From the UHGV virus genome UHGV-0330108: DNA of 42,810 bases. One strand, 5' to 3'. The notes beneath the pieces are model-generated. The model ran no database searches, was not told the origin of the DNA, and saw nothing but the letters and a program-made list of their open reading frames with translations. Positions 7,677 to 30,207 of this stretch are shown one piece after another (the first letter of the stretch is position 1; each line of letters begins with the position of its first letter). Source of the DNA: a virus. Made by a program: the position numbers and the translations under genes.

Positions 7677-7758
7677 TTGCCTTGCATGTTGGAATAATTT
7701 ATTCTTGACATGTAAATCCGGGTGGCCCGGATTCCAACGTCCAGGGGACATACTGACT

Positions 7759-8463
7759 ATGAATCGTTTTTTACGTTATCCGTTCCAGGAAGAAGCTGGG
7801 GCAGAAGATAAATCTGGTGGCGGTGATGCGCCGAAAATGTTCACCGCTGAAGAAGTTCGGGCGCTGATTGAGAAAGAAGTTGCCGGGCTTAAGGCCAATC
7901 AGGAAGCATTACTGGCGGAGAAGAAAGAAGCCGCTCGTAAAGCAAAAGAGGCCGAAGAAGAACGGCAGCGCGCCCACCAGGAGGCGTTAAAAGCCGCTGG
8001 TAAAATGGACGAATTCGAAAAGACGATTCGTAGCCAGTATGACCCGGTGTTAGCCGAGAAAGATGGTCGCATCTCCAGAATGGCAGAGCGCATCCTCGGC
8101 AGCGAACGTAAAGCGGTGTTAGGCTCTTTCGCAGGTGACTTTATTACTCCGGAAGCAGTGGACATCCTCGCGCCGTTCGTTAAGACTGAGTTCGAAGGTG
8201 ATGACGTGGTTACTAAGTTTGTCGGCGCAGATGGCAATGTAATCACGACTGACCCGGAACAGTTCCGCAAATACTTGCGCGAACACAAAGCGTTTTCGCA
8301 TTTGATTAAAGCAAATGCAGCTTCCGGCGGCGGGGCTTCCGGTAGCAAAGGCGGCGGGGCCGCACCAGCGTTTAAAGACATGAGTGAAGCGGAGCGTATT
8401 GCTCTGTACGAATCGAACCCTGCCGAATTTGAACGGCAACTTAAAGCCCTGAGGAAAAAATAA
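7759..8463 (+). CDS. putative scaffolding protein
   Basis: ORF track frame 7705-8463, ATG at 7759; E/K/A-rich predicted coiled coil; immediately upstream of and coupled to the major capsid gene. Confidence 0.6.
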   Translation: MNRFLRYPFQEEAGAEDKSGGGDAPKMFTAEEVRALIEKEVAGLKANQEALLAEKKEAARKAKEAEEERQRAHQEALKAAGKMDEFEKTIRSQYDPVLAEKDGRISRMAERILGSERKAVLGSFAGDFITPEAVDILAPFVKTEFEGDDVVTKFVGADGNVITTDPEQFRKYLREHKAFSHLIKANAASGGGASGSKGGGAAPAFKDMSEAERIALYESNPAEFERQLKALRKK

Positions 8464-9512
8464 TGGCAATTACTACTATCGGTGATATCGTAACTGGTAA
8501 AGAATCGGTCATTCTGTCTTACATGACAGAGGACCCGGTAGAGAAAACCGCGTTCTTCCAGTCCGGTATCCTTACCCCGACTCCGTACGCCGCTGCTATC
8601 GCAAACGGCCCATCCAACAAAGCTGTTCTGCCGTACTGGAAAGCGATTGATACCTCTATCGAGCCGAACTACTCGAACGATGTATATCAGGACGTCGCTA
8701 CCCCGCGTAACGTGCAAACCGGTGAGATGAACGTTCGCGTAGCTTACCTGAACGAAGGTTTTGGTCAGGCGGACCTGACCGTTGAACTTACCCGCCAGGA
8801 CCCGCTGAAATCTGTAGCGGCCCGTCTGGATAACTTCTGGCAGCGTCAGGCACAACGCCGTCTGATTGCTACCGCTCTCGGCCTGTACAACGACAACGTA
8901 GCTGCTGACGATGATTACCACAAGCAGAATGACATGGTTGTTGACGTATCCTCTAGCATGGGCTTCGACGCAGGCGCATTCATCGACGCTACCCAGACTA
9001 TGGGCGATGCGCTGATGGGCGACGGCGGTGAGGTTCTCGGTGCTATCGCGATGCACAGCTTCGTTTATGCACAGGCCCGTAAACAGCAGCTTATTGACTT
9101 CATCAAAGACGCTGACAACGACACCCTGTTCGCCACCTACCAGGGCTACCGCGTGATTGTTGACGACAGCATGACCGTAGTTGGCACCGGCACGAGCCGC
9201 AAGTTCATCTCCATCATCTTCGGTAACGGCGCTATCGGTTACGGTGAAGGTAGCCCGACCAAGCCGCTGGCCTATGAGCGTGAAGAGTCTCGCGGCAACG
9301 GTGGTGGCGTAGAAACCCTGTGGACCCGTAAGACCTGGTTGCTGCATCCGTTTGGTTACAGCTTCACCAGCGCGGTAATCACCGGTAATGGTACTGAGAC
9401 TACCCCGCGCTCTGCTTCATGGCAGGACCTGGCGAACGCCTCCAACTGGAACCGTGTGGTTGAACGTAAGCATGTACCGATTGCCTTCCTGGTAACTGGT
9501 GTCGGTGCTTAA
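8463..9512 (+). CDS. major capsid protein
   Basis: 349 aa ORF after the scaffold gene, followed by a strong terminator; size and position typical of an HK97-fold capsid protein. Confidence 0.8.
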   Translation: MAITTIGDIVTGKESVILSYMTEDPVEKTAFFQSGILTPTPYAAAIANGPSNKAVLPYWKAIDTSIEPNYSNDVYQDVATPRNVQTGEMNVRVAYLNEGFGQADLTVELTRQDPLKSVAARLDNFWQRQAQRRLIATALGLYNDNVAADDDYHKQNDMVVDVSSSMGFDAGAFIDATQTMGDALMGDGGEVLGAIAMHSFVYAQARKQQLIDFIKDADNDTLFATYQGYRVIVDDSMTVVGTGTSRKFISIIFGNGAIGYGEGSPTKPLAYEREESRGNGGGVETLWTRKTWLLHPFGYSFTSAVITGNGTETTPRSASWQDLANASNWNRVVERKHVPIAFLVTGVGA

Positions 9513-14188: not shown

Positions 14189-14659
14189 CTACTCATGGTT
14201 TTCATGGAAACCGTATTTACTCTCCGCGGCTTTACGCGCGGCAACCGCTAGACCAAAATCGTCGTAAAGCCCTAAATGTACTTGTTTGTAGTTAACTTTT
14301 ATAAACGCGCGCCACTTACCCGCGGCTTTGTGGAAACTTACACCTGTAGCCCCGGATTTATTTATCTTTCGCATAGTTTTATTTTTACTGTTCCCTGTAT
14401 TGTCGGTGGCGCGTAGATTTTCTATTCTATTGTCTAGCCTGTTATGGTTTATGTGGTCTATTTGAGTTTTCCTGTCTAAGTTGCATTTATTATAAAGACA
14501 CCATGCTATGCGGTGGACATACACCGTTTTACCACCCATACCGCAGCACAGATAGCCTCTTACACCAACCGTACCAACCTCAGCGCCAGTAGATATCCTG
14601 GTCACCTGCCCCGTCTCAGGGCAGTATTTAAATTGTTTTGAAACATCAATATATCTCAT
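14189..14659 (-). CDS. HNH homing endonuclease with AP2-like DNA-binding domain
   Basis: HNH core GYLCCGMGGKTVYVHRIAW...IDHINHNRLDNRIENL; C-terminal GVSFHKAAGKWRAFIKVNYKQVHLGLYDDFGLAVAARKAA resembles an AP2 domain. Confidence 0.8.
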   Translation of the reverse strand: MRYIDVSKQFKYCPETGQVTRISTGAEVGTVGVRGYLCCGMGGKTVYVHRIAWCLYNKCNLDRKTQIDHINHNRLDNRIENLRATDNTGNSKNKTMRKINKSGATGVSFHKAAGKWRAFIKVNYKQVHLGLYDDFGLAVAARKAAESKYGFHENHE

Positions 14660-16015: not shown

Positions 16016-16042
16016 TTTAAATCCCTCCATTGTTGGTGTGGG

Positions 16043-16598: not shown

Positions 16599-16963
16599 AC
16601 GCGCTGTACAGGTTCGCCACCTATGAGTTCGTTGATAAGCATAAAATCAGAGAGTTTGATTCTATAGCTGACGGACACGAGCAGGCGCTTATCGCGATGG
16701 GTGTAATCGATAAGAAAAAACGTGCAGCGCGACGGGGTGGGCCAGAATGCCCGCCCCTTTTTATATCCACCTTTGAGACGTACTGTGACATTAAGTTTAC
16801 GCGACACGTGGGCGAGGACGCTGTAGTATTGTTCGCAAGAGAATCCGTTACGTGGCAAGACCTGAAAGCCTATCTCGATGTTACGCAAAAACAGCTTAGC
16901 CTGTTCGAGATAGACATTATCATGGGCTTAGAAGCAATCTTTGAAGGTAGAAATCATGGCTGA
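16568..16963 (+). CDS. putative -1 frameshift extension of the tail assembly chaperone
   Basis: The -1 frame is open from 16568 to 16963 and overlaps the end of the chaperone; candidate slippery site G GAA AAG at 16589-16595 next to the 0-frame stop. Confidence 0.4.
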   Translation, partial: RRAQSITGKVDALYRFATYEFVDKHKIREFDSIADGHEQALIAMGVIDKKKRAARRGGPECPPLFISTFETYCDIKFTRHVGEDAVVLFARESVTWQDLKAYLDVTQKQLSLFEIDIIMGLEAIFEGRNHG

Positions 16964-19235
16964 TACCGCTAGCTTGATAGTACGAGTATCATCGACCGGC
17001 GTCGATAAAACTACATCACAACTGAACGGCCTTACCAAGGCGGCGGGGGCCGCTGCCGCTGCCGTTGTCAGTCTGGAAACCGCTAAGCAGGTTTTCAGCG
17101 CGCTGGTGGACTCTCAGCGCAACTTCGATAAGCTAAATTCCGGCCTTATCACGATGACCGGAAGCGCAGAGAATGCGGCTAAGGCTTTCAGCGTCCTGCA
17201 ACAGTTCGCAAAAGAAACCCCGTATGGACTCAATCAGGCGGTAGAGGGTTTCACTAAACTTGTAGCCCTCGGCCTTAACCCCAGCAAAGAAGCGTTAATC
17301 TCCTACGGCAACACCGCCGCGGCTATGGGCAAAGACCTTAATCAGATGATTGAGGCCGTAGCGGACGCCAGTACCTTTGAGTTTGAGCGACTGAAAGAGT
17401 TTGGCATCAAGTCGTCACAGCAGGCAGATACAGTTTCGTTCACTTTCCGCGGTGTCACCACCACGGTTAAGAAGAACTCAGAAGAGATTCAGAAATACCT
17501 GCTAAATATCGGTAACACTGATTTCGCAGGAGCGATGGAAACGCGCTCGAAAACCTTAGATGGTCAGTTATCGAGCCTGGCGGACTCCTTCGACAGCCTT
17601 GTTCTTGCGGTAGCGCAGTCTGGTTTTGGCGATGCCGTAGGCGAGCAAGCTGCGACAGCGGAAGATGCTATCACGGCGCTTACCGACGCCATTGCGTCTA
17701 ACGAGATAGCGGCCACGCTCCAGGACTGGGTGACACTGTTCAATGAGTCGTTCAAGTTTATTTCTGATGCCCTGAATGACCTGGCATTCGATACAGAGGA
17801 CAAATCCGTTGATATGTCCGACTCGCTGGGGACTATCCCTGATGCCATCCGTGAGTGGTTGCCCGACATCCAGCAGACATTCCACGAGGTTATCGCATGG
17901 TTTCAGCGCATTGACGATTACGCCGTAGCGCTTGGCCAGACCCTTGCCGACGTGTTTGACCCGAGCAAAACGGCGGCGCTCACATTTAAAAAACTGACCG
18001 CAGAGGCTGACGCCGCATACGACGCCAGCATAAAACGCGCAGAGGCCGAATCACAGGCCATTACCAACAGGTCTAAGCAGCACAAGAAAGAAATTGAGGA
18101 ACAGCGCAAGCAGTACAACGAGCGCAAGAAGCAAGAAATTGACCTAGCCAGCCTTGTTAATGGGAAGGGGGGAACTGGTGGGGCTGGTGGAACAGGAAAC
18201 ACCAACGACAAAGACGCGAAAGCCGCCGCTAAGAAAGCGGAGCAATTGCGTAAACAGGCGCAAGATTATCTCGATACTCTGGCCCGTCAGAACAACGACG
18301 AGTTAAAGGCCATTGATGCGCAGGAACAGCAGAAACTGGCTAAGGCAAAAGAGTTCTACAGCCAGGGCGCGTTGTCTCTGAAAGAATACGAGCAAGCAAA
18401 AACGGCTATTGTCCTCGAAGCCGGACAAAACCGACAAGATGAACTGGATAAACGCCAGAAAGAAGCCCAGGAAAAGCAGCAGAAAGGTGAAGACTTCATG
18501 GCCCAGATTATGGGCCAGAACGCCGCCGAGCTTGAGCTTCTCGACATCCAGGAACAGCAGAAACTGGCGGTAGCGGATAAGTACCGTGAGCAGGGTCTGA
18601 TTAACGAGGAACAGTATCAAGCGGCGCTTAACGCTATCAATGAGCAGTATGCCACGAAACGTGCGGATGCTTTAGGTAGCTCTTTTGGTGATATGGCGGC
18701 TAATGCTAAAACAGCATTCGGCGAGGCGTCCACCGCGTATAAAGCGTTCGCTATTGCACAGGCAACTATCGCCACGTACACATCGGCTATTGAGGCATAT
18801 AAGTCAACGGCTGCTATCCCTGTTGTCGGCCCATTCCTGGCTCCTGTAGCTGCCGCCACTGCCGTCGCCGCGGGGCTGGCTAATATCGCCAAAATCCGCT
18901 CGGCGCGTGAACAGGGTGGTCAGTTATCAGCGGGCCAGATGTCTACAATAGCGGAGCGTGGCAAGCCAGAAGTTATCATGCCCGCGGGGGCGTCACGCGT
19001 GCGCACCGCGCAGCAGATGAAAGAGATTATGGGGCAAAACGGTGGCCAGTCCGGCGGTGATAACGTCACCATAGTCAACAACACCACCGGACGTGTGGAT
19101 TCTGCCGTAACAGAACGTGACGACGAAGGGCGTTTGCGTATTATAATCAGCGAAACAGTAGCGTCGCAGTTACAGGATAACAACTCACCGATTTCTAAAG
19201 CTCGCCGCGCTACCCGCGGTCAGCCGGGGTACTGA
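16956..19235 (+). CDS. tape measure protein
   Basis: ORF track frame 16941-19235; ~760 aa, Ala/Gln/Glu/Lys-rich predicted coiled coil; located after the chaperone. Confidence 0.85.
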   Translation: MADTASLIVRVSSTGVDKTTSQLNGLTKAAGAAAAAVVSLETAKQVFSALVDSQRNFDKLNSGLITMTGSAENAAKAFSVLQQFAKETPYGLNQAVEGFTKLVALGLNPSKEALISYGNTAAAMGKDLNQMIEAVADASTFEFERLKEFGIKSSQQADTVSFTFRGVTTTVKKNSEEIQKYLLNIGNTDFAGAMETRSKTLDGQLSSLADSFDSLVLAVAQSGFGDAVGEQAATAEDAITALTDAIASNEIAATLQDWVTLFNESFKFISDALNDLAFDTEDKSVDMSDSLGTIPDAIREWLPDIQQTFHEVIAWFQRIDDYAVALGQTLADVFDPSKTAALTFKKLTAEADAAYDASIKRAEAESQAITNRSKQHKKEIEEQRKQYNERKKQEIDLASLVNGKGGTGGAGGTGNTNDKDAKAAAKKAEQLRKQAQDYLDTLARQNNDELKAIDAQEQQKLAKAKEFYSQGALSLKEYEQAKTAIVLEAGQNRQDELDKRQKEAQEKQQKGEDFMAQIMGQNAAELELLDIQEQQKLAVADKYREQGLINEEQYQAALNAINEQYATKRADALGSSFGDMAANAKTAFGEASTAYKAFAIAQATIATYTSAIEAYKSTAAIPVVGPFLAPVAAATAVAAGLANIAKIRSAREQGGQLSAGQMSTIAERGKPEVIMPAGASRVRTAQQMKEIMGQNGGQSGGDNVTIVNNTTGRVDSAVTERDDEGRLRIIISETVASQLQDNNSPISKARRATRGQPGY

Positions 19236-19238
19236 TTA

Positions 19239-19733
19239 ATGAGCGATTTAAGATTCCCTATGTCCCTTCGTCCGATAGTTTCGAAGGGGTACTCCCAGAC
19301 CAGGGGGAGTAATATCTGGCGCACCGAGGTCCAGGGGGGCTTTCCCCGCCAGGGGCGAGACACGTACTTTGAACCAGTGCCGATTAGCGTTACGCTCGTC
19401 GTGTCTTCTCTCGGTCGTCAGGCGTTTTATAGCTTCCTGAACAACATCGACGGCGGGGCGTCCTCGTTTATCATGCCGCATGATACAGGTATGGGCATCG
19501 AGGACCACCAGGTACTCATCACCTCTACGATTAGCGACAGCACCGACGACGGAAAGAACTGGGTAATTACATTCACTGCCACGGCGGAGCGAACAGCGAT
19601 TCAGGAAGACACATGTCTTACTAAGAATCTGCCGGATTTGTTCGGTTGTTATGGCGATTGCTTAGGCGGTTTCCTTAAGGCATACGGAACCGCGCAGTCA
19701 ACGTTTCCACGAATTTGGGACCCAATGCAATGA
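19239..19733 (+). CDS. minor tail protein (lambda gpM-like)
   Basis: Follows the tape measure gene; segments GYSQTRG and SVTLVV resemble conserved gpM features. Confidence 0.55.
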   Translation: MSDLRFPMSLRPIVSKGYSQTRGSNIWRTEVQGGFPRQGRDTYFEPVPISVTLVVSSLGRQAFYSFLNNIDGGASSFIMPHDTGMGIEDHQVLITSTISDSTDDGKNWVITFTATAERTAIQEDTCLTKNLPDLFGCYGDCLGGFLKAYGTAQSTFPRIWDPMQ

Positions 19734-20245
19734 GTCAGGAATCAGTAGAAGCCGCTTATCGCCGTAAGCTGGCGTCAAACCCAGATGGCGAACTGGATTA
19801 CATTACTCTTGAAATAACGCACCCGCTTCTCTCGAAGCGGTGGTTGCTTGTGCGCGGGACGTCTGACCTTACCGCTACTCTTGAAACTGGCGAAACTGTT
19901 ACGTTTGAGGCTACGCCTATGGACGCTAAGAACGCCGCAAACAATAATGACCTGGACCAGACCGCCTCGTTCTCACTGCCGGATGTTCTTAACATTCTCG
20001 ATGAAGAGATGGACCGCATCCCTTACAGCAATACGGAGTTACCTAAATTCATATTCCGACGCTACGTAAGCACAGACCTGTCATACCCGTGCGACGGCCC
20101 TGTAGTGTACGAGTTGCAGACTTTGACGCAAGAAAAAGGCGTGTTCACCGCAGAGACCGGAACACCTATGCTCAACCAACAGCAGACAGGAATACTGATG
20201 ACACCGGAAGAAATACCGCTGTTACGTGGGGTGCTTTTGTCATGA
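19730..20245 (+). CDS. minor tail protein (gpL-like position)
   Basis: ORF track frame 19715-20245; ATG at 19730 overlaps the upstream stop (ATGA). Confidence 0.5.
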   Translation: MSQESVEAAYRRKLASNPDGELDYITLEITHPLLSKRWLLVRGTSDLTATLETGETVTFEATPMDAKNAANNNDLDQTASFSLPDVLNILDEEMDRIPYSNTELPKFIFRRYVSTDLSYPCDGPVVYELQTLTQEKGVFTAETGTPMLNQQQTGILMTPEEIPLLRGVLLS

Positions 20246-20607
20246 GTATCACTGACTATACGGGCCTCCCTTATGACTTCCGTCGTTACAATTGTTGGCA
20301 TCACGTACGCAGGGTGCGCGGTGATGTTGGCCTATCTACGCCAAATTTCGACGTAACCTCCCCAACGGCTATAGACGCGGCGTTTGATGCAGGGCACTCC
20401 GACCCGAAAGGTCTGGAACGCGCTGACAGTCCGCAGAATTACGATGCCGTGTTGCTGGGTACTTATCACAGAGGGCGTGTAGTGTGGCATGCAGGCGTGT
20501 ATTATGATGGAATGGTGAGCCACTGTGAGTTGGCGTCCAGACAAGTTCGCCTTGACCGCCTGGACGATTTACGCGACACATATCAGGAGATTGAATTTTG
20601 GCGATAG
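20242..20607 (+). CDS. tail assembly protein (gpK-like, possible NlpC/P60-type Cys-His fold)
   Basis: ORF track frame 20089-20607; ATG at 20242 overlaps the upstream stop; motif RRYNCWHHV carries a candidate catalytic Cys. Confidence 0.5.
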   Translation: MSITDYTGLPYDFRRYNCWHHVRRVRGDVGLSTPNFDVTSPTAIDAAFDAGHSDPKGLERADSPQNYDAVLLGTYHRGRVVWHAGVYYDGMVSHCELASRQVRLDRLDDLRDTYQEIEFWR

Positions 20608-23147
20608 TCATCCACTACACCCGCAACGAAGACGGGACGTTCTCGCAAAAACGGCATAACGACTCGCCGCTGAATTTCGTCGTAAACCACATCCCTGATG
20701 GTGTGCCGTTTCGCGTTTTCCTCGAAGAGATAGGAGAGGATAACGACGTAACAGAAGATTTTGACGCCTTAAAACAGGATGCCGTTTTTCACGTCCTGGA
20801 AGGTGCTGGCGGTGGGGTAGTCAAAGGCGTGATGAAAGTATTTAGCATCATCCTTAAACCGCTGGCTAAATTACTCGCACCCTCAACAAAGGGCGCGTCT
20901 AACAATCTCGCTAACCAGCAAGCAGACTCTCCGAACAACAGCCTGACAGACCGGAATAACAAGGCCCGCCCATACGAGCGAACTTATGACATCTGCGGTA
21001 GGGTGCAGACAATACCTAATAACCTTATGACCACTTATAAGGTTTTCGATAACGCGGGCCGCATCATTGAGTATGGCTACTATGATGCCGGGCGCGGGTA
21101 TCTTGACGTTAAAGCAGAAGACATCACCGACGGTGACACCAAAGTCCAGGAGATAACCGGAACTTCTGTAGCGGTGTACGCCCCGTACACATCACCCAAT
21201 AACACAAGCTCTCCGCAACTTCTTGTCGGCGAACCTATCGACCAAAAGTTGTATATCACCATCGCATCTAATGAAGTAGACGGTGCGGTACTGAAAGCTC
21301 AAAACGGCATAAGAGTAAACCCAAGCGACACCGGCGAGATATCGCTGCAAGGGACAACAGGTATTGTACGTGATGCAACCGGGGATTCCGCGTTTACAGA
21401 AATTCTGTCAGTTGGCGATGTGGCCGTTTTCAATCTCATTCTGGTAAAAGATGTTGCTAACGTAAGCGGTAATTATACAGTTACTTACGTTGACGATTTC
21501 GAGGTTAGAGTCGCGGTAGGTGGTATGCTCACCGAATGGCAGAAGTTGCCGTCTGGTTTTACCCGGCTGACGCAGGGCAATGAGGCGTGGATTTCACCCT
21601 CAAACACGTATGATAAGTCATTGACGGACTGGACGACACTCAACCGTCTGCCGGTAGAGCGCATCGTTGCCAATATCGCCGCCGCTAACGGCATGTATAA
21701 AGACAACGGCAGTAAACTAAGGGCGTCTGTCACAGTCGAGTTGCAGTACCAGTTACTCGATTCCACAGGAACTCCTTACGGGCCTGTATATAGTAAGCAA
21801 GGAACTATATCAGGGCGCTCCTCGGACTACACAGGTGTGACAATCTACGCTGACCTGCCATCATCGTCTAATGTTCGTGTACGGGCGCGCAGGGTGACAA
21901 ACCTTGACCTTGCTTTCGATGGTACAGTGGTTGATGAGGTTTCGTACATAAACCTGTACGGGCAAATACGCGACACCACACCTAACTACGGCAACAGAAC
22001 CACCGTGCATTCCGCACGTAAACAGACACCAAGGGCCGCAGAGGTTAAACAGCCACAATTGCGAATGGTAGTAACTGAGATGGTGTACAAATATCTCGGT
22101 AACGGTGTTTTTGACTCCGTAAGAACGCCAAACACGCAAGCGGTACAGTCGCTGATTCGTCTTGCCCGTGACCCGGATGTCGGCGCGTTGAATCTGACAA
22201 CGGCAAATATGGATAAACTTCTGGCGGTACAAAGCGAAATTGAGAGTTATTTCGGTAGCGCATCCGCAGGAGAGTTTTGCTATACGTTTGACGATTACAA
22301 AACTACGATGCAGGACATAGTAACTACGATAGCGGAAGCAATTTTCTGCACTCCATACCGGAGAGGAGCGGATATTCTTCTGGACTTTGAACGCCCGCGG
22401 ATTGGTCCTGAGATGGTATTCACCCACCGCAGCAAAACTACCGCTACGGAGAAGTGGACACGTACGTTTAACGACGCCCAGGTATACGATAGCCTTAAGT
22501 TTTCATACATCGACCCAGATACTAACGTCAAAGAGACTATTAGCATACCGGCAGAAGGCGGGGTTAATACTGAAACGTACGACTCTAAGGGTATCAGGAA
22601 TTATCGTCAGGCATACTGGGCGGCGTACCGCCGGTATCAGAAAAACCTGTTGAAGAAGGTGGCGGTGTCATTCACGGCGACAGAAGAAGGGATTTTTGCG
22701 ATGCCAGGACGTGCCGTAAGTGTGGTGAAAGGTTCTCGCATGGCCCCCCAGGATGGCTATATAATCGCCGTTAACGGCCTGACGCTTACGTTATCACAAC
22801 CTGTTACGTTTACCCCCGGAGATGACCATTCACTCATCCTTAAGAAGCGAGACGGCGGAGTTCAAAGTGTTGCCGTTGTGCCTGGAAGCCACGACCGTGA
22901 AGTGGTTATGCTCTCCGCGCCTCAGGAGGCGATATACACAGGGAATAGCGCACTAAAAACTGAGTTTTCATTCGGCAACGAAGCAAGGCATAATGCTCAG
23001 ATGATTCTTGTTTCTACAGTTGACCCCGGAGACGACAGAACGGTTAAGATTACCGGGGTTAACTACGAAGCGGATTTCTACAAATACGACGGCGTCGCGC
23101 CTTTTGGTCGCGGTTTCTCCGACGGATTCAGTAACGGTTTTAGTTAA
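20598..23147 (+). CDS. tail tip / central tail fibre protein (gpJ-like, possibly with a gpI-like N-terminal region)
   Basis: 849 aa ORF after the M/L/K-like genes; TTG start with AGGAG upstream; N-terminal GAGGGVVKGVMKVF segment. Confidence 0.65.
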   Translation: MAIVIHYTRNEDGTFSQKRHNDSPLNFVVNHIPDGVPFRVFLEEIGEDNDVTEDFDALKQDAVFHVLEGAGGGVVKGVMKVFSIILKPLAKLLAPSTKGASNNLANQQADSPNNSLTDRNNKARPYERTYDICGRVQTIPNNLMTTYKVFDNAGRIIEYGYYDAGRGYLDVKAEDITDGDTKVQEITGTSVAVYAPYTSPNNTSSPQLLVGEPIDQKLYITIASNEVDGAVLKAQNGIRVNPSDTGEISLQGTTGIVRDATGDSAFTEILSVGDVAVFNLILVKDVANVSGNYTVTYVDDFEVRVAVGGMLTEWQKLPSGFTRLTQGNEAWISPSNTYDKSLTDWTTLNRLPVERIVANIAAANGMYKDNGSKLRASVTVELQYQLLDSTGTPYGPVYSKQGTISGRSSDYTGVTIYADLPSSSNVRVRARRVTNLDLAFDGTVVDEVSYINLYGQIRDTTPNYGNRTTVHSARKQTPRAAEVKQPQLRMVVTEMVYKYLGNGVFDSVRTPNTQAVQSLIRLARDPDVGALNLTTANMDKLLAVQSEIESYFGSASAGEFCYTFDDYKTTMQDIVTTIAEAIFCTPYRRGADILLDFERPRIGPEMVFTHRSKTTATEKWTRTFNDAQVYDSLKFSYIDPDTNVKETISIPAEGGVNTETYDSKGIRNYRQAYWAAYRRYQKNLLKKVAVSFTATEEGIFAMPGRAVSVVKGSRMAPQDGYIIAVNGLTLTLSQPVTFTPGDDHSLILKKRDGGVQSVAVVPGSHDREVVMLSAPQEAIYTGNSALKTEFSFGNEARHNAQMILVSTVDPGDDRTVKITGVNYEADFYKYDGVAPFGRGFSDGFSNGFS

Positions 23148-23159
23148 AGAGGACTCTAT

Positions 23160-25238
23160 ATGTCAAGCGGATGCGGTGACGTTTTAAGCCTGGCGGATTT
23201 ACAAACAGCCAAGAAACACCAGATTTTCGAAGCTGAAGTTATCACCGGTAAGTCCGGCGGCGTTGCGGGCGGTGCTGATATCGATTACGCGACCAACGCG
23301 GTTACAGGGCAGACGCAGAAAACTCTACCTGCTGTTTTACGCGATGCAGGCTTTTCTCCTGTGTCATGGGACTTCTCAACCGGCGGAACTTTAACTGTTA
23401 ACGACCGTGACAAAGTGGTTTACGACCCTGTGAGCAAAACGTGGTATTCGTACGCAGGTGCACTTCCTGTTACAGTTCCTGCTGGTTTTAACCCTGTTGG
23501 TAATGCGGACTGGAAACCACAGACAGACCCGGATTTACGTGGTGACCTATCTGACCCTAACGGCGCTACAACGCACCCGGAGTTTCAGCTTGCACGTTGG
23601 CGAGAAATTGGGGACCCGCGAGGTTGGGGTGGGGTTGGTGATGGCGTAGCCGACGACACTACAGCAGTATCATCAGCATTACAAACAGGAAAACTTAACC
23701 TCGGCGGTAAGACATGGAAAATTACTAGCCAAATAACAAAGACAGGTAAAGTTAGCATAACCGGTCCTGGCACCATTATCTCACCAACTATTGCTATTAA
23801 GGTTACTGATGGCTCCGGTAGCGTAGTCGATAATGTGACGTTTATGCCAGATAAAGTACCATATACCATCCGCCGTGACCACGGAACCTGGGCTATGGTT
23901 GGCACTTGGGAGCAACGCTATGATGGGTATATACCTACTCCGCAAGATGTCGATATTTGGTCTTCTGTCCCTTCTGATGTGCGTACATATAACACCGGCA
24001 TAGGTACAGGGGTACTTTTCACCGTATCCTCTCCAGCTGGCGGCAGTAATGTTAAGGTGTCCCGAATAAGCGGGTCACAGGTTAATATCATCTTAGAGGG
24101 CTATACCGACTCTACGGTCGATGAATGCTCTTGCGGAGTTGGGCAGCTTACACTTGGTGGTATATTTTTCCATAATGGGGTTATGCGTGCTTATAATCAG
24201 GCGTTATTAGGGTTCAGGTTACCGAGAGGAGCCGGAAACAAAGTAACAAATTGCTCTATAAAATACTCTAGTTTGTGCGGTATTGTTTTTGGTGGGAACG
24301 ATTATTTTACGATATCCGGGAATACATCAACCGACCATGCGGAATCCGCGTATAAATTATTGCAGTATGATGCCGTCGAGGGTATTACTGACGACGAAGA
24401 GGTGATGTGCCGCCGCGGCAACATATACGGTAACTCTGCAGGTTTTTGCTACTATGATGGGTTTGATTTACAGTCGATTTACGGTGCTGGCTTTAAGTTT
24501 GTTTTCGGTGGACACACGATAACCGGGAATATTTCCGAAAGAAACAGATTAACAGGATTTCACACGAACTCAGCCTACAACAATGTAACAGCAAACATCG
24601 CAAATGTTTGTGGAGATACTGGAATAAATGTAATAGGCACAGGTAACACTGTACAAGGGAACAAAGCTATGGATTGTGCGCTGGCCCCATCTAACCCTCA
24701 GGCCTTTCAGATTGCCGTGCAAGGGGATGACTGTGTTAGCTTTGGGAATAGCATTAAGAAAACAACAGCATACTCTACGTATGATTACATCCATACGGGT
24801 TTACTTGGAGCAGAGCCAACAAGCTCACACGAGGGTATTGATTTTGGTAACTACTGTGAAGAAGGGTCCGCAAGAATTTATGTGTCCAGCAGCATAAAAT
24901 CCCAACGCAATACGTTTAATGCCGCGATTAAAGCAGTTACCTTATCTGCTAATGGTCCGACCACTGTCACGGGTAACTACACGGTCACAGAAACAGATTA
25001 TGCACTGTCATTCTTTACTACATCGGGCGCTGTAGTGACACTGCCGCCTGCGTCGGCTAACAAAGGCCGAGTTTTAGAAATGCGCAACACGTCTGCTTAC
25101 GGTGTGGTTTCGGCCTCAAATAACGTAGGACAGATTTCTGGCGGTAGCCCAACAAATGCGATTCTACCGGACACTGTAGGTTCGTGGTGTAAGCTACAAT
25201 CTAACGGTTCAGAATGGCTCATCATGGCAAAAGGGTAA
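23160..25238 (+). CDS. tailspike / receptor-binding protein with beta-helix-like repeats (candidate polysaccharide depolymerase)
   Basis: 692 aa; GAGGA RBS; central region has periodic G/N/T-rich repeats (e.g. GNTSTDH, GNISERN, GNTVQGN); last structural gene before a bidirectional terminator. Confidence 0.75.
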   Translation: MSSGCGDVLSLADLQTAKKHQIFEAEVITGKSGGVAGGADIDYATNAVTGQTQKTLPAVLRDAGFSPVSWDFSTGGTLTVNDRDKVVYDPVSKTWYSYAGALPVTVPAGFNPVGNADWKPQTDPDLRGDLSDPNGATTHPEFQLARWREIGDPRGWGGVGDGVADDTTAVSSALQTGKLNLGGKTWKITSQITKTGKVSITGPGTIISPTIAIKVTDGSGSVVDNVTFMPDKVPYTIRRDHGTWAMVGTWEQRYDGYIPTPQDVDIWSSVPSDVRTYNTGIGTGVLFTVSSPAGGSNVKVSRISGSQVNIILEGYTDSTVDECSCGVGQLTLGGIFFHNGVMRAYNQALLGFRLPRGAGNKVTNCSIKYSSLCGIVFGGNDYFTISGNTSTDHAESAYKLLQYDAVEGITDDEEVMCRRGNIYGNSAGFCYYDGFDLQSIYGAGFKFVFGGHTITGNISERNRLTGFHTNSAYNNVTANIANVCGDTGINVIGTGNTVQGNKAMDCALAPSNPQAFQIAVQGDDCVSFGNSIKKTTAYSTYDYIHTGLLGAEPTSSHEGIDFGNYCEEGSARIYVSSSIKSQRNTFNAAIKAVTLSANGPTTVTGNYTVTETDYALSFFTTSGAVVTLPPASANKGRVLEMRNTSAYGVVSASNNVGQISGGSPTNAILPDTVGSWCKLQSNGSEWLIMAKG

Positions 25239-25277
25239 AAAAAAACTAAGGCCCCAAACGGGGCCTTTTCTTTACTC
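25239..25277. terminator. bidirectional rho-independent terminator cassette
   Basis: A9-CT-AAGGCCCC-AAAC-GGGGCCTT-TTCTTTACTC; core identical to 13917-13950; contains the stop codon of a minus-strand small gene. Confidence 0.65.
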
Positions 25278-25409
25278 TTCTGATAACTTCTCAAGTACAA
25301 ACGCCAGTTGCGCATTAGCGGCGTCTCTTTGCTGGCGTAGTCGTAGAACCTCCTCCTCGAGTTCCTTGATACGTTTTTGCAATGCTGGAATCGGGGCTAT
25401 GATGTTCAT
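25272..25409 (-). CDS. small coiled-coil protein (45 aa, MNIIAPIPALQKRIKELEEEVLRLRQQ...)
   Basis: Not in the ORF track; ATG overlaps the helicase stop (ATGA); GAGGTAAG upstream. Confidence 0.4.
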   Translation of the reverse strand: MNIIAPIPALQKRIKELEEEVLRLRQQRDAANAQLAFVLEKLSEE

Positions 25410-26839
25410 TTCTTACCTCGTCTCTTCATGTAATTGAGTAATTCTTCCTGGACCGATTTCTTCTCGTCAGTGCGTGCGGCAACAACCTCGTCCAGCGTGT
25501 CTTTAGCAACGATGCGGTAGAGGAACACCGGGCGCTCGTGTCCCGCCTGTTTCTGGCGCACAGGACCTATGCGCTCCACGACCTGCAAATAGTGCTCAAG
25601 GTTCCAGCCTTGCGAAATAAACGCCAGATGATGGCCGCCGTCCTGTAAATTCAAACCATGGCCGGCTGACGCAGGGTGCACACATAAGATTTCGATTTCT
25701 CCTCGGTTCCACGCTTCCATCTGCTTATTGCCTTTAGCACCTTTGGCGAACGCCTGTGCCTGCGGGAAACGTTTCAGGATGCGTTCCAGTTCGTGCTTGA
25801 ACTGATAGGCGACCAGTAGCGGTGCGCCCTGTAACTCCTCCACAATTGACTCCAGCGCATCCAGTTTCGTATCGTGCACTTTCTCCCAGTCTTTGGTTGC
25901 TTCTCCGTCAGGCCCCGATACATATACGGCACCAGATGCAATCTGCAGACACTTTGACGTCTTCGCCGCAGCGTTAGCCGCTTCAACTTCCCCGCTCTCG
26001 AGTTCCGCAAATAACTTCTCTTCCATATCTACGTACGCCTGACGCGCTTTCTTCGGCAGGTCGATTTCAACCGGTACAATAATCGGCGCTTCGCATCCGA
26101 ACCACTCAGCGGCGTCAATCGTGAGACTAATGTCCTTCATCTTCTGGTGGATTTCATTATCAGCACCAGGGCGGGCATGATACTCACGCGCCATAGCAGA
26201 TTTGCCTTTCTGCACCGAGTTAAACCAGCGGTCGGTGAATGCCGTGTACGACGACCCCAGGCGCTCGCCCGCGTCGATAAACCAGTTCTGGCCCCACAAG
26301 TCCTTGAGGCCGTTTGGTGACGGTGTGCCTGTCAGGTTAATGAAACGTTTAACCTTTCCGAACGCCACTTTACTAAGCGCCTTTGCCCTCTTGCTACCGC
26401 CCGAACGGCTACGGAATGATTTCAGCTTCGTGCTTTCATCGGCGACTATAACCGTAAAAGGCCAGTCGTCTTTGCCGTAGTAGTCAATAAGCCACTCGAT
26501 AACTTCGTAGTTCGTGCATACCACGTTAGCGTCCGACTCCAGCGCCGCGATGCGGCGCTTCTCGGAATCGGTCGCATCTACGACGCGCAGACACGGGAAA
26601 CCCCACTTAGTTTGTTCTGATGGCCATGTACCAGACGCAACTCGCAGCGGGGCGAGGATTAACACGCGGTCATCATCATCATTAAGTTGGCCGTTGCGGA
26701 ACAGTCGGTTAAGCACCCACATAGTTGCGGAACTTTTGCCCGCGCCCATCGAAGCCCAAATATTACAGCGCGGATGTTGCAGCATGAACGAAGTCATGAG
26801 CTTTTGGTACTCTCGACGGATAAATTTAGACATAATCAA
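25406..26839 (-). CDS. SNF2/DEAD-box-like ATP-dependent helicase
   Basis: Walker A SMGAGKSS, DExx box VADEST, NLTGTPSPN, and late motif HPASAGHGLNLQ. Confidence 0.8.
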   Translation of the reverse strand: MIMSKFIRREYQKLMTSFMLQHPRCNIWASMGAGKSSATMWVLNRLFRNGQLNDDDDRVLILAPLRVASGTWPSEQTKWGFPCLRVVDATDSEKRRIAALESDANVVCTNYEVIEWLIDYYGKDDWPFTVIVADESTKLKSFRSRSGGSKRAKALSKVAFGKVKRFINLTGTPSPNGLKDLWGQNWFIDAGERLGSSYTAFTDRWFNSVQKGKSAMAREYHARPGADNEIHQKMKDISLTIDAAEWFGCEAPIIVPVEIDLPKKARQAYVDMEEKLFAELESGEVEAANAAAKTSKCLQIASGAVYVSGPDGEATKDWEKVHDTKLDALESIVEELQGAPLLVAYQFKHELERILKRFPQAQAFAKGAKGNKQMEAWNRGEIEILCVHPASAGHGLNLQDGGHHLAFISQGWNLEHYLQVVERIGPVRQKQAGHERPVFLYRIVAKDTLDEVVAARTDEKKSVQEELLNYMKRRGKK

Positions 26840-27030
26840 CCCTTAATGTAGAGTACCAGCTCTTTACGCCCGAACGCCGTAACGTTACCGGTTACGTCTT
26901 CAATAACCAGTTTACCGTTCGACTCGACGTACACCGTATCAACGGCAACAGGCTGTCGAGTCTTAACGTTGAAAATCATGTCGCCAGGTACGATGTCACG
27001 CGCTGGTTTGCGGTCATATTCGTGTTTCAT
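26836..27030 (-). CDS. hypothetical protein (64 aa)
   Basis: ORF track; initiation region TAAGGAATTGAGAAATG is identical to that of 27045-27338. Confidence 0.5.
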   Translation of the reverse strand: MKHEYDRKPARDIVPGDMIFNVKTRQPVAVDTVYVESNGKLVIEDVTGNVTAFGRKELVLYIKG

Positions 27031-27044
27031 TTCTCAATTCCTTA

Positions 27045-27338
27045 TCAGTACATTAATTCGTTTATTTTCTTATCCAAAGATTCTTTTGAGTAAAAGAAAC
27101 CCATGTGTCTCCCCTTAAATACGAGCCTGTACACATTCTCATCATCTTCAGTAGTAGAAAGGAAAACCCTACAACTAGTTCGGAACTCTCTTACTTTGTC
27201 ACCAAACGCCAATTGCTCCCATTTTACTAAAGGAAATTCTTTTAACATATTGGCGTACAAGTCATTCGCAGTAGCCACTAAGCCCGCATCTAATAGTATG
27301 GCTATTCTCTGCGCGTAATCTAAAAGGACCTTATTCAT
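27045..27338 (-). CDS. hypothetical protein (97 aa), AT-rich cassette
   Basis: ORF track; flanked by 18-bp direct repeats CATTTCTCAATTCCTTAT; visibly more AT-rich than neighbours. Confidence 0.5.
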   Translation of the reverse strand: MNKVLLDYAQRIAILLDAGLVATANDLYANMLKEFPLVKWEQLAFGDKVREFRTSCRVFLSTTEDDENVYRLVFKGRHMGFFYSKESLDKKINELMY

Positions 27339-27341
27339 TTC

Positions 27342-27653
27342 TCAATTCCTTATATTGTTGGTGCAGGGATAACTATAATAGTTCGCTATTAGGTCGTCAA
27401 CCTCTTCTTTTGTTCCTACTACAAAAACATTTGCGTCACGTTTACGAAGCCGTTTGTGTTCCCGCAACTGATGGGCCTCCGGTTCCGTGTTTTCGTCTTT
27501 CTTCACCTCGACGAACCATATAACCCCTCCAGGAAGGGCTACCAGCAGGTCAGGCGCTCCGTTTCTACCCTCATAAGACAGCTTACGAACGAGGCCACCA
27601 ATGGCCTCGAATTGCTCTTTTGCGTATTTCTGTATTTTTCCTTCCGGGGTCAT
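27342..27653 (-). CDS. VRR-NUC domain nuclease
   Basis: ORF track frame 27342-27668; ATG at 27653; motif GAPDLLVALPGGVIWFVEVKKDE fits the VRR-NUC/PD-(D/E)XK signature. Confidence 0.7.
   Translation of the reverse strand: MTPEGKIQKYAKEQFEAIGGLVRKLSYEGRNGAPDLLVALPGGVIWFVEVKKDENTEPEAHQLREHKRLRKRDANVFVVGTKEEVDDLIANYYSYPCTNNIRN
27372..27400 (-). promoter_or_regulatory. sigma70-like promoter (minus: TTGACG-N17-TATAGT) with palindrome TAATAGTTCGCTATTA in the spacer
   Basis: Read on the reverse complement; lies inside the 3' end of the VRR-NUC gene, upstream of 27045-27338. Confidence 0.55.
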
Positions 27654-27802
27654 GAGCGCAGAACCCAAGTAAGGAAAGACCCTCCGAGAACGGCAACGCC
27701 CGCAAACTTAAAGAACAGGCCATAGCAGAACATCGCGGCTATTCCCGCACCGAGTAACAGTGCGATCATGGTTACTATCGTCCAAAATACAAACATTGTC
27801 AT
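27650..27802 (-). CDS. small membrane protein (50 aa)
   Basis: Not in the ORF track; ATG at 27802 with GGGAGGG 9 nt upstream; stop overlaps the VRR-NUC ATG (ATGA); hydrophobic. Confidence 0.35.
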   Translation of the reverse strand: MTMFVFWTIVTMIALLLGAGIAAMFCYGLFFKFAGVAVLGGSFLTWVLRS

Positions 27803-27884
27803 AATACACATCCCTCCCGTTTGGTATGCTCAATACCACATCGCGGACAGATTCGGCAGTCTTCTCCATAAAACCAGTAAATTT

Positions 27885-28016
27885 TCATTCCAGCACCCAT
27901 AGATAAATTGCGATGAACATGCCCAATATAGCAACCATCATGCCGTATTGGCCCTCGTGACAGTAGACACCGGCAGCGAATCCCGCCAGTACCGCGATAA
28001 TCAGTTTACTTGGCAT
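27885..28016 (-). CDS. small membrane protein (43 aa)
   Basis: Not in the ORF track; ATG at 28016 just after the DNA polymerase stop, GGAG upstream; hydrophobic. Confidence 0.35.
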   Translation of the reverse strand: MPSKLIIAVLAGFAAGVYCHEGQYGMMVAILGMFIAIYLWVLE

Positions 28017-30207
28017 AACGCTTCATCTCCGCACCTTCCGCGACCAAAGGGAACCCATCTGCCCACTCGGGCAACGCACACATTAATTTTTCCAGTTCAG
28101 CCACCGTGTATTCAGGTGTGTCTGGAGTTTCACACACCAGTTCATCGTGTACCGAAAGTACGATAGGATACCCACCGCCCTCAACATTAATCATCGCATA
28201 TGCGAGTAAATCACGGCACAGCGCCTGAACAATGTTTTCGCAGGCTTTGCCGCCGTGGGTGTACAGGGTAGTCCATTGGCGGGTTAACTGGTTTTCACCC
28301 TGATACTTGATTCGCACATTCGTGTTTACCCGGCCGTCTTCATCTGTCTCCTTTGTCACACTAACGCCGATTCCCGGATAAGAGAGGATGCGGCCCGACG
28401 GCAACTCCATGCATAACCACCAACCAGGAACCTTCCTTCCGGATGAATCAAATTCTACAGTACGCCATATGCGGATAGCCCTTTCGCCATTCCTGCGCAA
28501 GTGCGCTCCCGCCCAAAATTCACGACCTGGGTTACGGACAGCGGCTAAAATTCCGTCTTTAAGGTCACGCCAGAACGCTACTGTTTCCGGGTGTGACTCG
28601 CGCCACATACGCTTGATTGCGTCGCAGGTACGCCACACTTTTTTGTCCAGAATATACGATGGTCTGTCGTCCTTTTCACCTGGATGCGGTGGGCGCTTGG
28701 CTTCCTGGATGCGCGCCCATTCATATCCTCTCGCGGTGGCTGACCAGATGTGGTCGGGGAATGTACCGTCCATTGTTTTTGCCATCTCGATAAGGTCAAG
28801 ACCTAAGTTTTTGGCGAACGTAACGAACGCTCCGACGCCGCCCTCATAGCCGAGGCCAAGCTCGCAAGCCTTGCCTATCTGTCTGATTTCCTTGAAGTTT
28901 TTCTTAATATCGTCGGGGTCCATGCCGAACATCTTACCTGCGGTTACGCAGTAAATATCCAGTCCAGCGCGGAAAGTATCGAGCGCGGTTTCTTCACCAG
29001 CCAGCCACGCAAGCCCCCGGCCTTCAACGTTCGAGTAATCGGCGACGACAAACTTATGCCCTGCTTCCGGAATGATGCAACTACGCACCGTAGATGCTGT
29101 TAGCTTGGCTACATCGAAACGGCGATGAGCACGGCCTTTAAGTAACGCAGAAATGCCTTTATCCAGTTCATCATCGTGATAGTACCCACGCGCCAGGTTC
29201 TGCGGCTGGAAGCCTTTACCGGCCCATCGCAGAGTACGTTTTGCCCCGCCGTACTGCAAGCAACCACGACGGCGGTCGTCCGACGAGCGGCCCAACAGCA
29301 GCGGGTTATATTTCGTTGATGCGGTGGACGCCGCCCCGAGGCGCATTTCGATAATCGTACGCGCGTCGTCAGGTAAATCATCATCTGCCAGCAGGTCGTT
29401 AAGCGTAGACTTCTGCGCATTGTGGATGCGGTGCGCGGGCGCAAGTTCACGCAGAATAGGAAGGAAGTCTTTACCGGTAAGAGAGCCGCCGTATTTGCGT
29501 TGGGCTTCTTCCTGTAGCTGCGCTTTGTGCTTCTCCACGGCTTCAATTGCGGCTTCCGCCAGTGCAACGTCAACCTTAAACCCGCGGTCATTGATTACCT
29601 GGTCCAGTTCCAGCACACGGTCTTCGAACTCAGAGTTACCCCAACGCGGCAGTTTATGGAAGACTTCACGCATCGCAGTGATGTCGCTCACGGCGTACTT
29701 GATGAACAGCGCCCACTCGTCTGGGTGCGTTTCTGCTGTGTAACGGCGGATTTTGTAGTTCTTCGGCGTAGGTTTAGAAAAACGCTGAATCAGCGCCTTG
29801 CCGCGTTTATCTTTCGCGTTGTCTGCAGATACGCCCAGCACTTCGCACAACGCATCGAGAGAACCCGGAAGCGCGTGACGAAACGCCCAAATCATCGTAT
29901 CAATGGTGTTGCTTACCGGAATATCAAAGCCCCAGCAATGCTTCATGATGAGCCTGTCGAAAAGTCCACCGTTGTGCCATACCATCTTAATACGGCTGTT
30001 CGGCTTCACCAGACGGCGTAACGCGCGATGCAGGTCCCCTGGCATGTCGCTGCCGTCGGTGCAATCCCATACCTGTACAGGCTCGTCGTCAAAAGCATAG
30101 GTGCAGATAAGCACTTCTGTAGTCTGGTGTTCGGCGTAAGCGTAGGAACCGACTTTCTTTAAATCGGCTTCGGAGAATGTTTCAAAGTCTAAGAACAGGT
30201 AACTCAT
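28006..30207 (-). CDS. DNA polymerase, family A, with 3'-5' exonuclease domain
   Basis: Exo I motif LFLDFETFS; motif A VADYSNVEGRGLAWLAGE; motif B RQIGKACELGLGYEGG; motif C LSVHDELVCE. Confidence 0.9.
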   Translation of the reverse strand: MSYLFLDFETFSEADLKKVGSYAYAEHQTTEVLICTYAFDDEPVQVWDCTDGSDMPGDLHRALRRLVKPNSRIKMVWHNGGLFDRLIMKHCWGFDIPVSNTIDTMIWAFRHALPGSLDALCEVLGVSADNAKDKRGKALIQRFSKPTPKNYKIRRYTAETHPDEWALFIKYAVSDITAMREVFHKLPRWGNSEFEDRVLELDQVINDRGFKVDVALAEAAIEAVEKHKAQLQEEAQRKYGGSLTGKDFLPILRELAPAHRIHNAQKSTLNDLLADDDLPDDARTIIEMRLGAASTASTKYNPLLLGRSSDDRRRGCLQYGGAKRTLRWAGKGFQPQNLARGYYHDDELDKGISALLKGRAHRRFDVAKLTASTVRSCIIPEAGHKFVVADYSNVEGRGLAWLAGEETALDTFRAGLDIYCVTAGKMFGMDPDDIKKNFKEIRQIGKACELGLGYEGGVGAFVTFAKNLGLDLIEMAKTMDGTFPDHIWSATARGYEWARIQEAKRPPHPGEKDDRPSYILDKKVWRTCDAIKRMWRESHPETVAFWRDLKDGILAAVRNPGREFWAGAHLRRNGERAIRIWRTVEFDSSGRKVPGWWLCMELPSGRILSYPGIGVSVTKETDEDGRVNTNVRIKYQGENQLTRQWTTLYTHGGKACENIVQALCRDLLAYAMINVEGGGYPIVLSVHDELVCETPDTPEYTVAELEKLMCALPEWADGFPLVAEGAEMKRYAK

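What the first reader, a model, noticed from the sequence alone, without database searches (positions are those of the whole stretch)
23160..25238. Tailspike with compositionally distinct central beta-helix region (possible domain swap)
The N-terminal ~150 codons look compositionally like the rest of the late operon, whereas the central part (roughly 24100-24700) is noticeably more AT-rich and encodes periodic G/N/T-rich repeats typical of a beta-helix. This points to a mosaic receptor-binding protein with an exchanged enzymatic domain; the substrate cannot be inferred.
Basis: partly seen in the sequence, partly recalled or inferred. Interest (0 to 1): 0.45.

Follow-up and report, generated by a model that had tools for sequence, protein, structure and literature searches.

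The report
Kagunavirus tailspike with swapped receptor-binding cassette
This is the tailspike gene of a Kagunavirus-type phage: the first ~130 codons are the genus-specific anchor and everything after them is a sugar-cutting, host-recognising cassette also found in unrelated phages, which is an ordinary, already-described way for phages to change host.

Summary
The ORF is real: 23160..25238 (+), 692 aa, directly after the J-like tail-tip gene of a Kagunavirus genome whose closest backbone is Raoultella phage RP180.

The AT-rich centre exists but is weak. GC at 24100-24899 is 0.438 against 0.507 for the genome (z = -2.0). An internal change-point is only marginal (16 of 200 permutations). It sits in codon positions 1+2, so it reflects amino-acid content, and it is the same in all homologues. 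GC3 is low over the whole gene (0.42 vs 0.56 ± 0.06).

Homology, not composition, proves the mosaic:
- aa 1-130 is the Kagunavirus anchor.
- nt ~23550-25238 (neck, beta-helix, C-terminal domain) is one cassette. It is ~92% nt identical to T1-like siphovirus contigs and ~85% aa identical to T7-like Enterobacter phage EP1. It also occurs in at least three further backbones.
- The junctions lie after the DPDLR motif and between the stop codon and a conserved terminator.

Verdict: a new member of a known kind, of low to moderate interest.

The parts
23160..25238 (+). Tailspike gene, 692 aa. It lies directly downstream of the J-like tail-tip gene (20598..23147) and is convergent with the early genes.
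   Evidence: ORF list; RBS AAAGAGGA at 23147-23154; PHROG tail spike families; same position as the RP180, ST20 and AV104 tailspikes.
23160..23549 (+). Genus-specific N-terminal anchor, aa 1-130. It ends with the DPDLR motif (aa 123-127). It contains a small beta-sandwich (aa 66-121) related to Pfam Tail_spike_N.
   Evidence: 87-94% aa identity to the listed Kagunavirus tailspikes that carry unrelated C-termini, with matches ending at aa 131-141. 73% identity to RP180. DNA identity to ST20, AV104 and RP180 stops at about 23549. PF18668 hit over aa 77-112, E 1.4e-4, below the cut-off.
23550..23639 (+). Helical neck or linker, aa 131-160 (SDPNGATTHPEFQLARWREIGDPRGWGG). This is the left exchange junction. 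A similar neck ends the otherwise unrelated anchors of the other carriers.
   Evidence: Protein and DNA alignments. The model has helices at 123-156 with low pLDDT. PDB 9vvr_A matches aa 72-181 only.
23640..24899 (+). Right-handed parallel beta-helix, aa 161-~580, a P22/9NA/Det7-type glycanase domain.
24342..24467 (+). Predicted catalytic residues: E395 (24342-24344), D433 (24456-24458) and D436 (24465-24467). K399 and G434 are also invariant.
   Evidence: Invariant in the 61-sequence alignment A1. They align to the GESGVK and WDGFDL motifs of P22 tailspike, which hold Glu359, Asp392 and Asp395. The active-site assignment is cited in bioRxiv 10.1101/2021.09.20.461090.
23774..23888 (+). Small recombination patch inside the cassette. 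Here the window follows the EP1/L013/L004 allele instead of the L003/L008 allele that it follows elsewhere.
   Evidence: 14 consecutive informative sites. In this block 14 of 16 sites are B-like, against 16 of 217 elsewhere (Fisher p = 1.4e-12). Identity bins.
24945..25235 (+). Autonomous C-terminal beta-sandwich domain, aa 596-692. It follows a low-confidence linker (aa 585-595). It is a widespread terminal module of phage fibres and spikes.
25248..25267 (.). Bidirectional intrinsic terminator hairpin (AAGGCCCC-AAAC-GGGGCCTT). The right exchange junction lies between the stop codon (25236-25238) and this element.
   Evidence: Terminator scan on both strands. All Kagunaviruses share the sequence from about 25243 onward whatever their receptor-binding domain, and identity to L003/L008 ends at the stop codon.

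Best explanation
The gene encodes the single tailspike of a Kagunavirus (Guernseyvirinae siphovirus). It is built from two units with different histories.

Codons 1-130 are the genus-specific anchor that fixes the spike to the tail tip. Everything from the neck to the stop codon (nt ~23550-25238) is a receptor-binding cassette that moves horizontally between unrelated phage lineages. It sits here between two conserved landing sites: the DPDLR/neck segment on the left and the stop codon plus bidirectional terminator on the right.

The cassette has three parts:
- a helical neck;
- a right-handed beta-helix that is a distant homologue of the P22/9NA/Det7 tailspike endoglycosidases and keeps their Glu/Asp/Asp active site (E395/D433/D436);
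- a separate C-terminal beta-sandwich domain of a type common in phage fibres.

Likely mechanism (inferred): a trimeric spike binds a surface polysaccharide of an enterobacterial host, either O-antigen or capsule, and hydrolyses it. This lets the phage reach the outer membrane. The specificity is shared with Enterobacter phage EP1 and the other carriers.

The mild AT-richness of the centre is a by-product of the Gly/Asn/Thr/Ser-rich beta-helix residues. It is not the mark of the swap.

Shown here: gene, domain borders, cross-lineage sharing, junctions, fold, and homology to P22-type spikes with conserved catalytic residues. Inferred: trimer, hydrolase activity, glycan target, host.
For: Backbone and gene position:
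- The backbone is Kagunavirus, with RP180 the closest at 90% nt.
- The gene order matches RP180, ST20 and AV104.

Anchor:
- aa 1-131/141 are 87-94% identical to the listed Kagunavirus tailspikes whose C-termini differ.
- RP180 matches aa 1-131 only.

Cassette:
- EP1 (Kayfunavirus, T7-like) matches over the cassette but has its own N-terminus.
- Contigs L003 and L008 have a T1-like gene order (SSB, ERF/AAA_24, DUF3799, helicase, primase). They are 0.87-0.99 nt identical from 23610 to the stop codon, against 0.13-0.54 over the anchor.
- The same cassette occurs in two further podovirus contexts (L011/L012, L013) and in ~71-kb and ~50-kb contigs.

Junctions and assembly:
- Both junctions are resolved at the nucleotide level.
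- An assembly artefact is excluded. Contig L010, from another sample, is 99-100% identical across both junctions, and L004, L005 and L009 have the same architecture.

Fold and homology:
- AF2 model and fold searches.
- Profile and hhalign comparisons with P22-type spikes.
- 14 of 61 family members hit Pfam PhageP22-tail directly, best E 1.5e-25.
- The catalytic residues are invariant.

Composition.

Literature: the anchor/RBD modularity of Kaguna- and Kayfunavirus is described in PMC10408124. The glycan dependence of Kagunavirus is described in PMC11990801.
Against: - There is no biochemical or host-range evidence for this protein.
- The window protein on its own does not reach Pfam PF09251. 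Identity to P22-type spikes is only about 17%, so the substrate cannot be transferred from them.
- The C-terminal third differs from P22: hhalign ends at aa 523.
- The structure model is a monomer.
- The direction and timing of the transfers are unknown. The cassette's GC (0.45-0.47) resembles the 46%-GC backbones of L003, L008 and L013 more than the 51% of Kagunavirus, which is only a hint.
- No prophage copies were found that could name a host.
Confidence: 0.88

Rival explanations
1. Only the central stretch (about 24100-24700) is foreign. On this view a catalytic sub-domain was inserted into an otherwise native tailspike, and the AT-richness marks the insert.
For: GC is 0.438 in 24100-24899 against 0.49-0.51 on either side. 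Identity to the subtype-B alleles (L004, EP1, L013) falls from 0.8-1.0 to about 0.7 at roughly 23950 and, for L004, rises again at about 25100.
Against: - No breakpoint lies at 24100 or 24700 in any comparison.
- Homology to L003/L008 runs uninterrupted from about 23610 to the stop codon.
- Kagunaviruses with other receptor-binding domains lose all homology already at 23549.
- GC3 is flat along the gene, and the dip is in positions 1+2 with the same value in every homologue.
Confidence: 0.04
2. No horizontal exchange took place. The gene was inherited vertically, and the C-terminal part diverged quickly under host selection.
For: Receptor-binding domains do evolve fast. The anchor is conserved in the genus.
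Against: The cassette is about 92% nt identical to that of T1-like contigs, whose anchors and flanks are unrelated (0.13-0.54 identity, the level of chance alignment). Sister Kagunaviruses show no detectable similarity over the same stretch.
Confidence: 0.02
3. The cassette is a binding-only spike, or uses a different chemistry (lyase, deacetylase or epimerase), rather than being a P22-type hydrolase.
Confidence: 0.15
4. The mosaic is an assembly chimera of two phages from a mixed sample.
For: None beyond the general risk that comes with metagenome-derived sequences.
Against: The same junctions appear in independent contigs from other samples: L010 at 99-100% identity, and L004, L005 and L009 with the same architecture. 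The reading frame is intact, and the cassette ends exactly at the stop codon.
Confidence: 0.01

Closest known systems
Kagunavirus / Guernseyvirinae tailspikes (e.g. K1G endosialidase spike, ST20, AV104, RP180 ORF29), as analysed by Pas et al. 2023 (PMC10408124)
   Same: Same locus, directly after the J-like tail-tip gene. Same N-terminal anchor (73-94% aa). Same DPDLR-type junction and the same downstream terminator. Same principle of a genus-conserved anchor plus a horizontally exchanged beta-helix receptor-binding domain.
   Different: The cassette is not found in any named Kagunavirus in GenBank. Among deposited phages only Enterobacter phage EP1, from a different family, carries it.
Enterobacter phage EP1 tail spike UNA02557.1 (Kayfunavirus, Autographiviridae)
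   Same: About 85% aa and about 78% nt identity over the neck, beta-helix and C-terminal domain. The glycan specificity is presumably the same or closely related.
   Different: EP1 has a T7 gp17-type N-terminus instead of the Kagunavirus anchor and is 780 aa long. It carries the subtype-B allele, about 70% nt identical over 23970-25140.
P22 / 9NA / Det7 tailspike endorhamnosidases (Pfam PF09251; CAZy GH90 from my own knowledge)
   Same: Right-handed beta-helix. Profile homology over window aa 183-523, aligned to P22 150-496. The catalytic Glu359/Asp392/Asp395 align to E395/D433/D436.
   Different: About 17% identity. There is no P22 head-binding domain. The C-terminal part is a separate beta-sandwich domain rather than the P22 C-terminal region. 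The single sequence is below the Pfam threshold. The substrate is unlikely to be the Salmonella A/B/D1 O-antigen.
Classic cross-morphotype spike sharing (K1 endosialidases of K1F, K1E/K1-5 and K1G; Det7, described as 'a podoviral tailspike in a myovirus')
   Same: One enzymatic receptor-binding module grafted onto lineage-specific anchors in sipho- and podoviruses.
   Different: A different enzyme family. Here at least six backbones carry the module, and there is an extra small conversion patch inside it.

Membership tests
Kagunavirus tailspike | N-terminal anchor homologous to the genus anchor | tested here: met
   87-94% aa identity over aa 1-131/141 to the listed Kagunavirus spikes. PHROG 29731 E 2.7e-49.
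Kagunavirus tailspike | Encoded directly downstream of the J-like central tail-fibre gene, at the end of the late operon and convergent with the helicase/polymerase block | tested here: met
   ORF map. phrog_469 tail protein upstream. Same order in RP180, ST20, AV104 and L004.
Kagunavirus tailspike | Variable C-terminal beta-helix receptor-binding domain that follows host glycan rather than phage taxonomy | tested here: met
   The cassette is shared with T1-like, T7-like and other backbones and is absent from sister Kagunaviruses.
P22-type tailspike endoglycosidase (PF09251 / GH90) | Right-handed parallel beta-helix homologous to P22, 9NA and Det7 | tested here: met
P22-type tailspike endoglycosidase (PF09251 / GH90) | The single sequence passes the Pfam PF09251 threshold | tested here: not met
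   There is no PF09251 hit for the window protein at E <= 0.1. 14 of 61 relatives do hit it.
P22-type tailspike endoglycosidase (PF09251 / GH90) | Catalytic Glu359, Asp392 and Asp395 conserved | tested here: met
   They align to E395, D433 and D436, which are invariant in A1. The active site is cited.
P22-type tailspike endoglycosidase (PF09251 / GH90) | P22 head-binding N-terminal domain (PF09008) and P22-type C-terminal trimerisation region | tested here: not met
   No PF09008 hit. hhalign ends at aa 523. The C-terminus is a separate beta-sandwich of gp10/XD-like type.
P22-type tailspike endoglycosidase (PF09251 / GH90) | Endorhamnosidase activity on O-antigen | not testable with these tools
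   This needs purified protein and LPS or capsule from a susceptible host.
Horizontally exchanged RBP cassette (anchor/RBD modularity) | High nucleotide identity of the RBD between phages whose anchors and flanks are unrelated, with definable junctions | tested here: met
   0.87-0.99 identity over the cassette against 0.13-0.54 over the anchor with L003/L008. Junctions at about 23549 and 25238-25243.

The most novel reading that the evidence does not exclude
The cassette may define a so far uncharacterised specificity class of P22-like (GH90-type) endoglycosidase, directed at an Enterobacter-group surface glycan and capped by a gp10/XD-like terminal domain. The conserved neck (LR..DPN..PE.Q..RWRE.GDPRGWGG) may act as a shared recombination adaptor. 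That adaptor would let the same cassette be plugged into at least six otherwise unrelated sipho- and podovirus lineages.
Probability: 0.4. Interest if true: 0.35.

Novelty: new member of a known kind. Interest (0 to 1): 0.25.

Why it matters
The practical value is moderate.
- It maps exact swap junctions and a portable cassette that could be used to retarget small Kagunavirus chassis phages.
- It links a poorly annotated spike (EP1's is deposited as a hypothetical protein) to the P22 endoglycosidase family, with testable catalytic residues.
- It is a caution that a local GC dip in a beta-helix gene reflects amino-acid content, not proof of foreign origin.

Conceptually it only adds another example to a well-described rule of tailspike modularity.

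Tried and rejected
- Exact look-up of the window protein in the assembly index found nothing. The near-identical P0001 contig L010 was used instead.
- The search for related loci with the 61-sequence alignment failed because no stretch was conserved enough.
- Scans of 185,579 representative bacterial genomes found no close relative, only a 28%-identical Pedobacter protein. A pattern scan of IMG/VR found none. No prophage therefore gave a host clue.
- A sequence search of PDB with the C-terminal domain profile found nothing. Only the fold search was informative.
- Pfam on the single protein gave only sub-threshold Beta_helix, Tail_spike_N and End_N_terminal hits.
- Two literature searches for the P22 catalytic residues came back empty or narrow. 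The citation used is indirect.
- The promoter scan inside the gene was at chance level: 4 found against 3.4 expected.
- Rejected explanations: an insert limited to the central region, vertical divergence, and an assembly chimera (see rivals).

Full report
**The object**

The finding's ORF exists exactly as stated: 23160..25238 on the + strand, 692 aa. A good ribosome-binding site (AAAGAGGA) lies 5 nt upstream. It follows an 849-aa J-like tail-tip protein (phrog_469, E 4e-252). It is convergent with a minus-strand block made of a 45-aa ORF, an SNF2 helicase and DNA polymerase.

The window is a Kagunavirus (Guernseyvirinae) genome. Over 15000-30000 the best match is Raoultella phage RP180 (90% nt, 83% covered), followed by Klebsiella phage vB_kpnM_D1, Escherichia phage 26, K1G and others. 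PHROGs call the protein a tail spike.

**Checking the composition claim**

GC is 0.438 in 24100-24699 and in 24100-24899. The first 131 codons have 0.509 and the whole window 0.507. Among all 800-nt windows this gives z = -2.0, and 2.9% of windows are as low. Other regions are as low or lower.

A scan for the lowest-GC interval inside the gene picks codons 167-621 (0.444 inside against 0.529 outside). Sixteen of 200 codon permutations do as well. For third positions there is no internal interval at all (107 of 200).

Splitting by codon position explains the dip:
- GC at positions 1+2 falls from 0.55 in the anchor to 0.456 in aa 271-580.
- It has the same value (0.450-0.461) in all nine homologues compared, whether their backbone is 46% or 52% GC.
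- The region is rich in Gly (14.5%) and Asn (9.5%), with GN motifs every 20-40 residues.

So the central AT-richness is real, modest, and a consequence of beta-helix amino-acid content.

The gene does stand out in GC3 as a whole. At 0.421 it is the lowest of 25 ORFs of at least 150 aa (others 0.560 ± 0.056). The anchor is included in this (0.457).

**The mosaic, shown by homology**

At the DNA level, 106 phage records match the gene, but none covers 80% of it. About a hundred Kagunavirus genomes match only nt 1-380 of the gene. One T7-like phage, Enterobacter phage EP1 (Kayfunavirus), matches nt 436-1643.

At the protein level:
- aa 1-131/141 are 87-94% identical to the listed Kagunavirus tailspikes, whose remainders are unrelated.
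- RP180, the closest backbone, matches aa 1-131 only.
- EP1's 780-aa spike is about 85% identical from aa ~139 to the end but has its own N-terminus.

A search of 5.8 billion proteins found only 25 clusters with this C-terminal part. They carry at least six different N-termini. Their contigs give these contexts:

| Carrier | Backbone |
|---|---|
| L004, L005, L009, L010 | Kagunavirus (L010 is 99-100% identical to the window) |
| L003, L008 | T1-like siphovirus gene order (SSB, ERF/AAA_24, DUF3799, helicase, primase) |
| L011, L012 | T7-type podovirus, spike encoded after the lysozyme |
| L013 | another podovirus |
| P0012, P0014, P0016-18 | ~71-kb and ~50-kb contigs |

**Junctions**

A codon-aware alignment gives nt identity to L003/L008 of 0.13-0.54 over the anchor and 0.87-0.99 from 23610 to the stop codon.

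- Left side: ST20, AV104 and RP180 follow the window up to about 23549, just after the motif DPDLR (aa 123-127), and are then unalignable. L003 and EP1 become near-identical from about 23600. In between lies a helical neck (SDPNGATTHPEFQLARWREIGDPRGWGG) that recurs in diverged form at the end of the other anchors.
- Right side: identity to L003/L008 ends at the stop codon. From about 25243 all Kagunaviruses share the sequence again, whatever their cassette. That shared sequence starts with a bidirectional terminator at 25248-25267.

The exchanged unit is therefore about 23550-25238. No breakpoint lies at 24100 or 24700.

Inside the cassette there are two alleles: A (window, L010, L003, L008) and B (L004, EP1, L013). 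They are about 70% identical over 23970-25140. A patch at 23774-23888 in the window is B-like, with 14 consecutive informative sites (Fisher p = 1.4e-12). Homologous recombination therefore also shuffles the cassette internally.

**What the cassette is**

An AlphaFold2 model built on a 61-sequence alignment has mean pLDDT 88. It shows:
- a poorly defined N-terminus;
- a beta-sandwich (aa 66-121);
- neck helices (aa 123-156);
- a long right-handed beta-helix (aa 161-~575);
- a low-confidence linker (aa 585-595);
- a compact C-terminal domain.

More decisively, a profile of the family hits 9NA (E 1.2e-36), P22 (about 1e-29) and Det7 (1e-25) in PDB. hhalign against P22 gp9 gives 99.3% probability over window aa 183-523, aligned to P22 150-496. 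Fourteen of the 61 relatives hit Pfam PhageP22-tail directly. The window protein alone does not.

The P22 motifs GESGVK and WDGFDL hold the active-site residues Glu359, Asp392 and Asp395 (assignment cited). They align to AESAYK and YDGFDL in the window. E395, K399, D433, G434 and D436 are invariant in all 61 sequences. I therefore infer a retained endoglycosidase site.

**Mechanism and host**

Kagunaviruses depend on O-antigen or capsule glycans and carry only this spike as receptor-binding protein (PMC11990801). The most likely function is binding and hydrolysis of a surface polysaccharide.

The only cultured carrier of the cassette, EP1, is specific for an Enterobacter isolate. Its authors noted that the spike's C-terminus had no known relatives (PMC9765668). 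The glycan itself cannot be named. No prophage copy was found that could point to a host.

**Comparison with what is known**

Pas et al. 2023 (PMC10408124) describe exactly this architecture for Kaguna- and Kayfunaviruses: anchors follow taxonomy, and receptor-binding domains follow host serotype through horizontal transfer.

The present gene is a new member of that kind. It has a rare cassette that is a divergent P22-type enzyme. The stated location and the compositional reasoning are not.

**Verdict**

This is an ordinary, well-understood phenomenon, now mapped precisely. Interest 0.25.

Noticed in passing
window 26900-27400: This is the strongest low-GC stretch near the finding (GC 0.37-0.41), lower than anything in the tailspike. 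It covers small minus-strand ORFs 26836..27030 (phrog_4879, unknown function) and 27045..27338 (no PHROG hit). RP180 carries a cytosine methyltransferase between its helicase and endonuclease genes, and the window has none there.
   Followed up: partly
window 14189..14659 (-): A 156-aa HNH endonuclease (phrog_99, E 7e-55) with GC 0.433 and the second-lowest GC3 of the genome. It sits on the opposite strand next to the late genes and is probably a homing endonuclease.
   Followed up: partly
window 25272..25409 (-): A 45-aa ORF not listed at the 60-aa cut-off. It matches phrog_5915 (E 2e-27) and corresponds to RP180 ORF30. RP180 has an extra 516-nt ORF31 before its helicase, which the window lacks.
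   Followed up: partly
window 24945-25235 (aa 596-692 of the tailspike): The C-terminal ~95-aa domain is an autonomous module found at the very end of many otherwise unrelated proteins, sometimes in several copies. It has no Pfam or PDB sequence match. Its fold resembles the domain in Acinetobacter phage Solidus gp83 and gp10/XD-type domains.
   Followed up: yes
window 23774-23888: A short tract inside the receptor-binding cassette follows the EP1/L013/L004 allele, while the rest follows the L003/L008 allele (p = 1.4e-12). This points to small-scale recombination within the cassette.
   Followed up: yes
window 7899..9347 (-): A 482-aa minus-strand ORF overlaps the plus-strand late genes 7705..8463 and 8463..9512. 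It is probably a spurious shadow ORF.
   Followed up: no
L003 14914-16470: The helicase gene of the T1-like carrier contig has a weak precomputed Pfam hit to Intein_splicing (PF14890).
   Followed up: no
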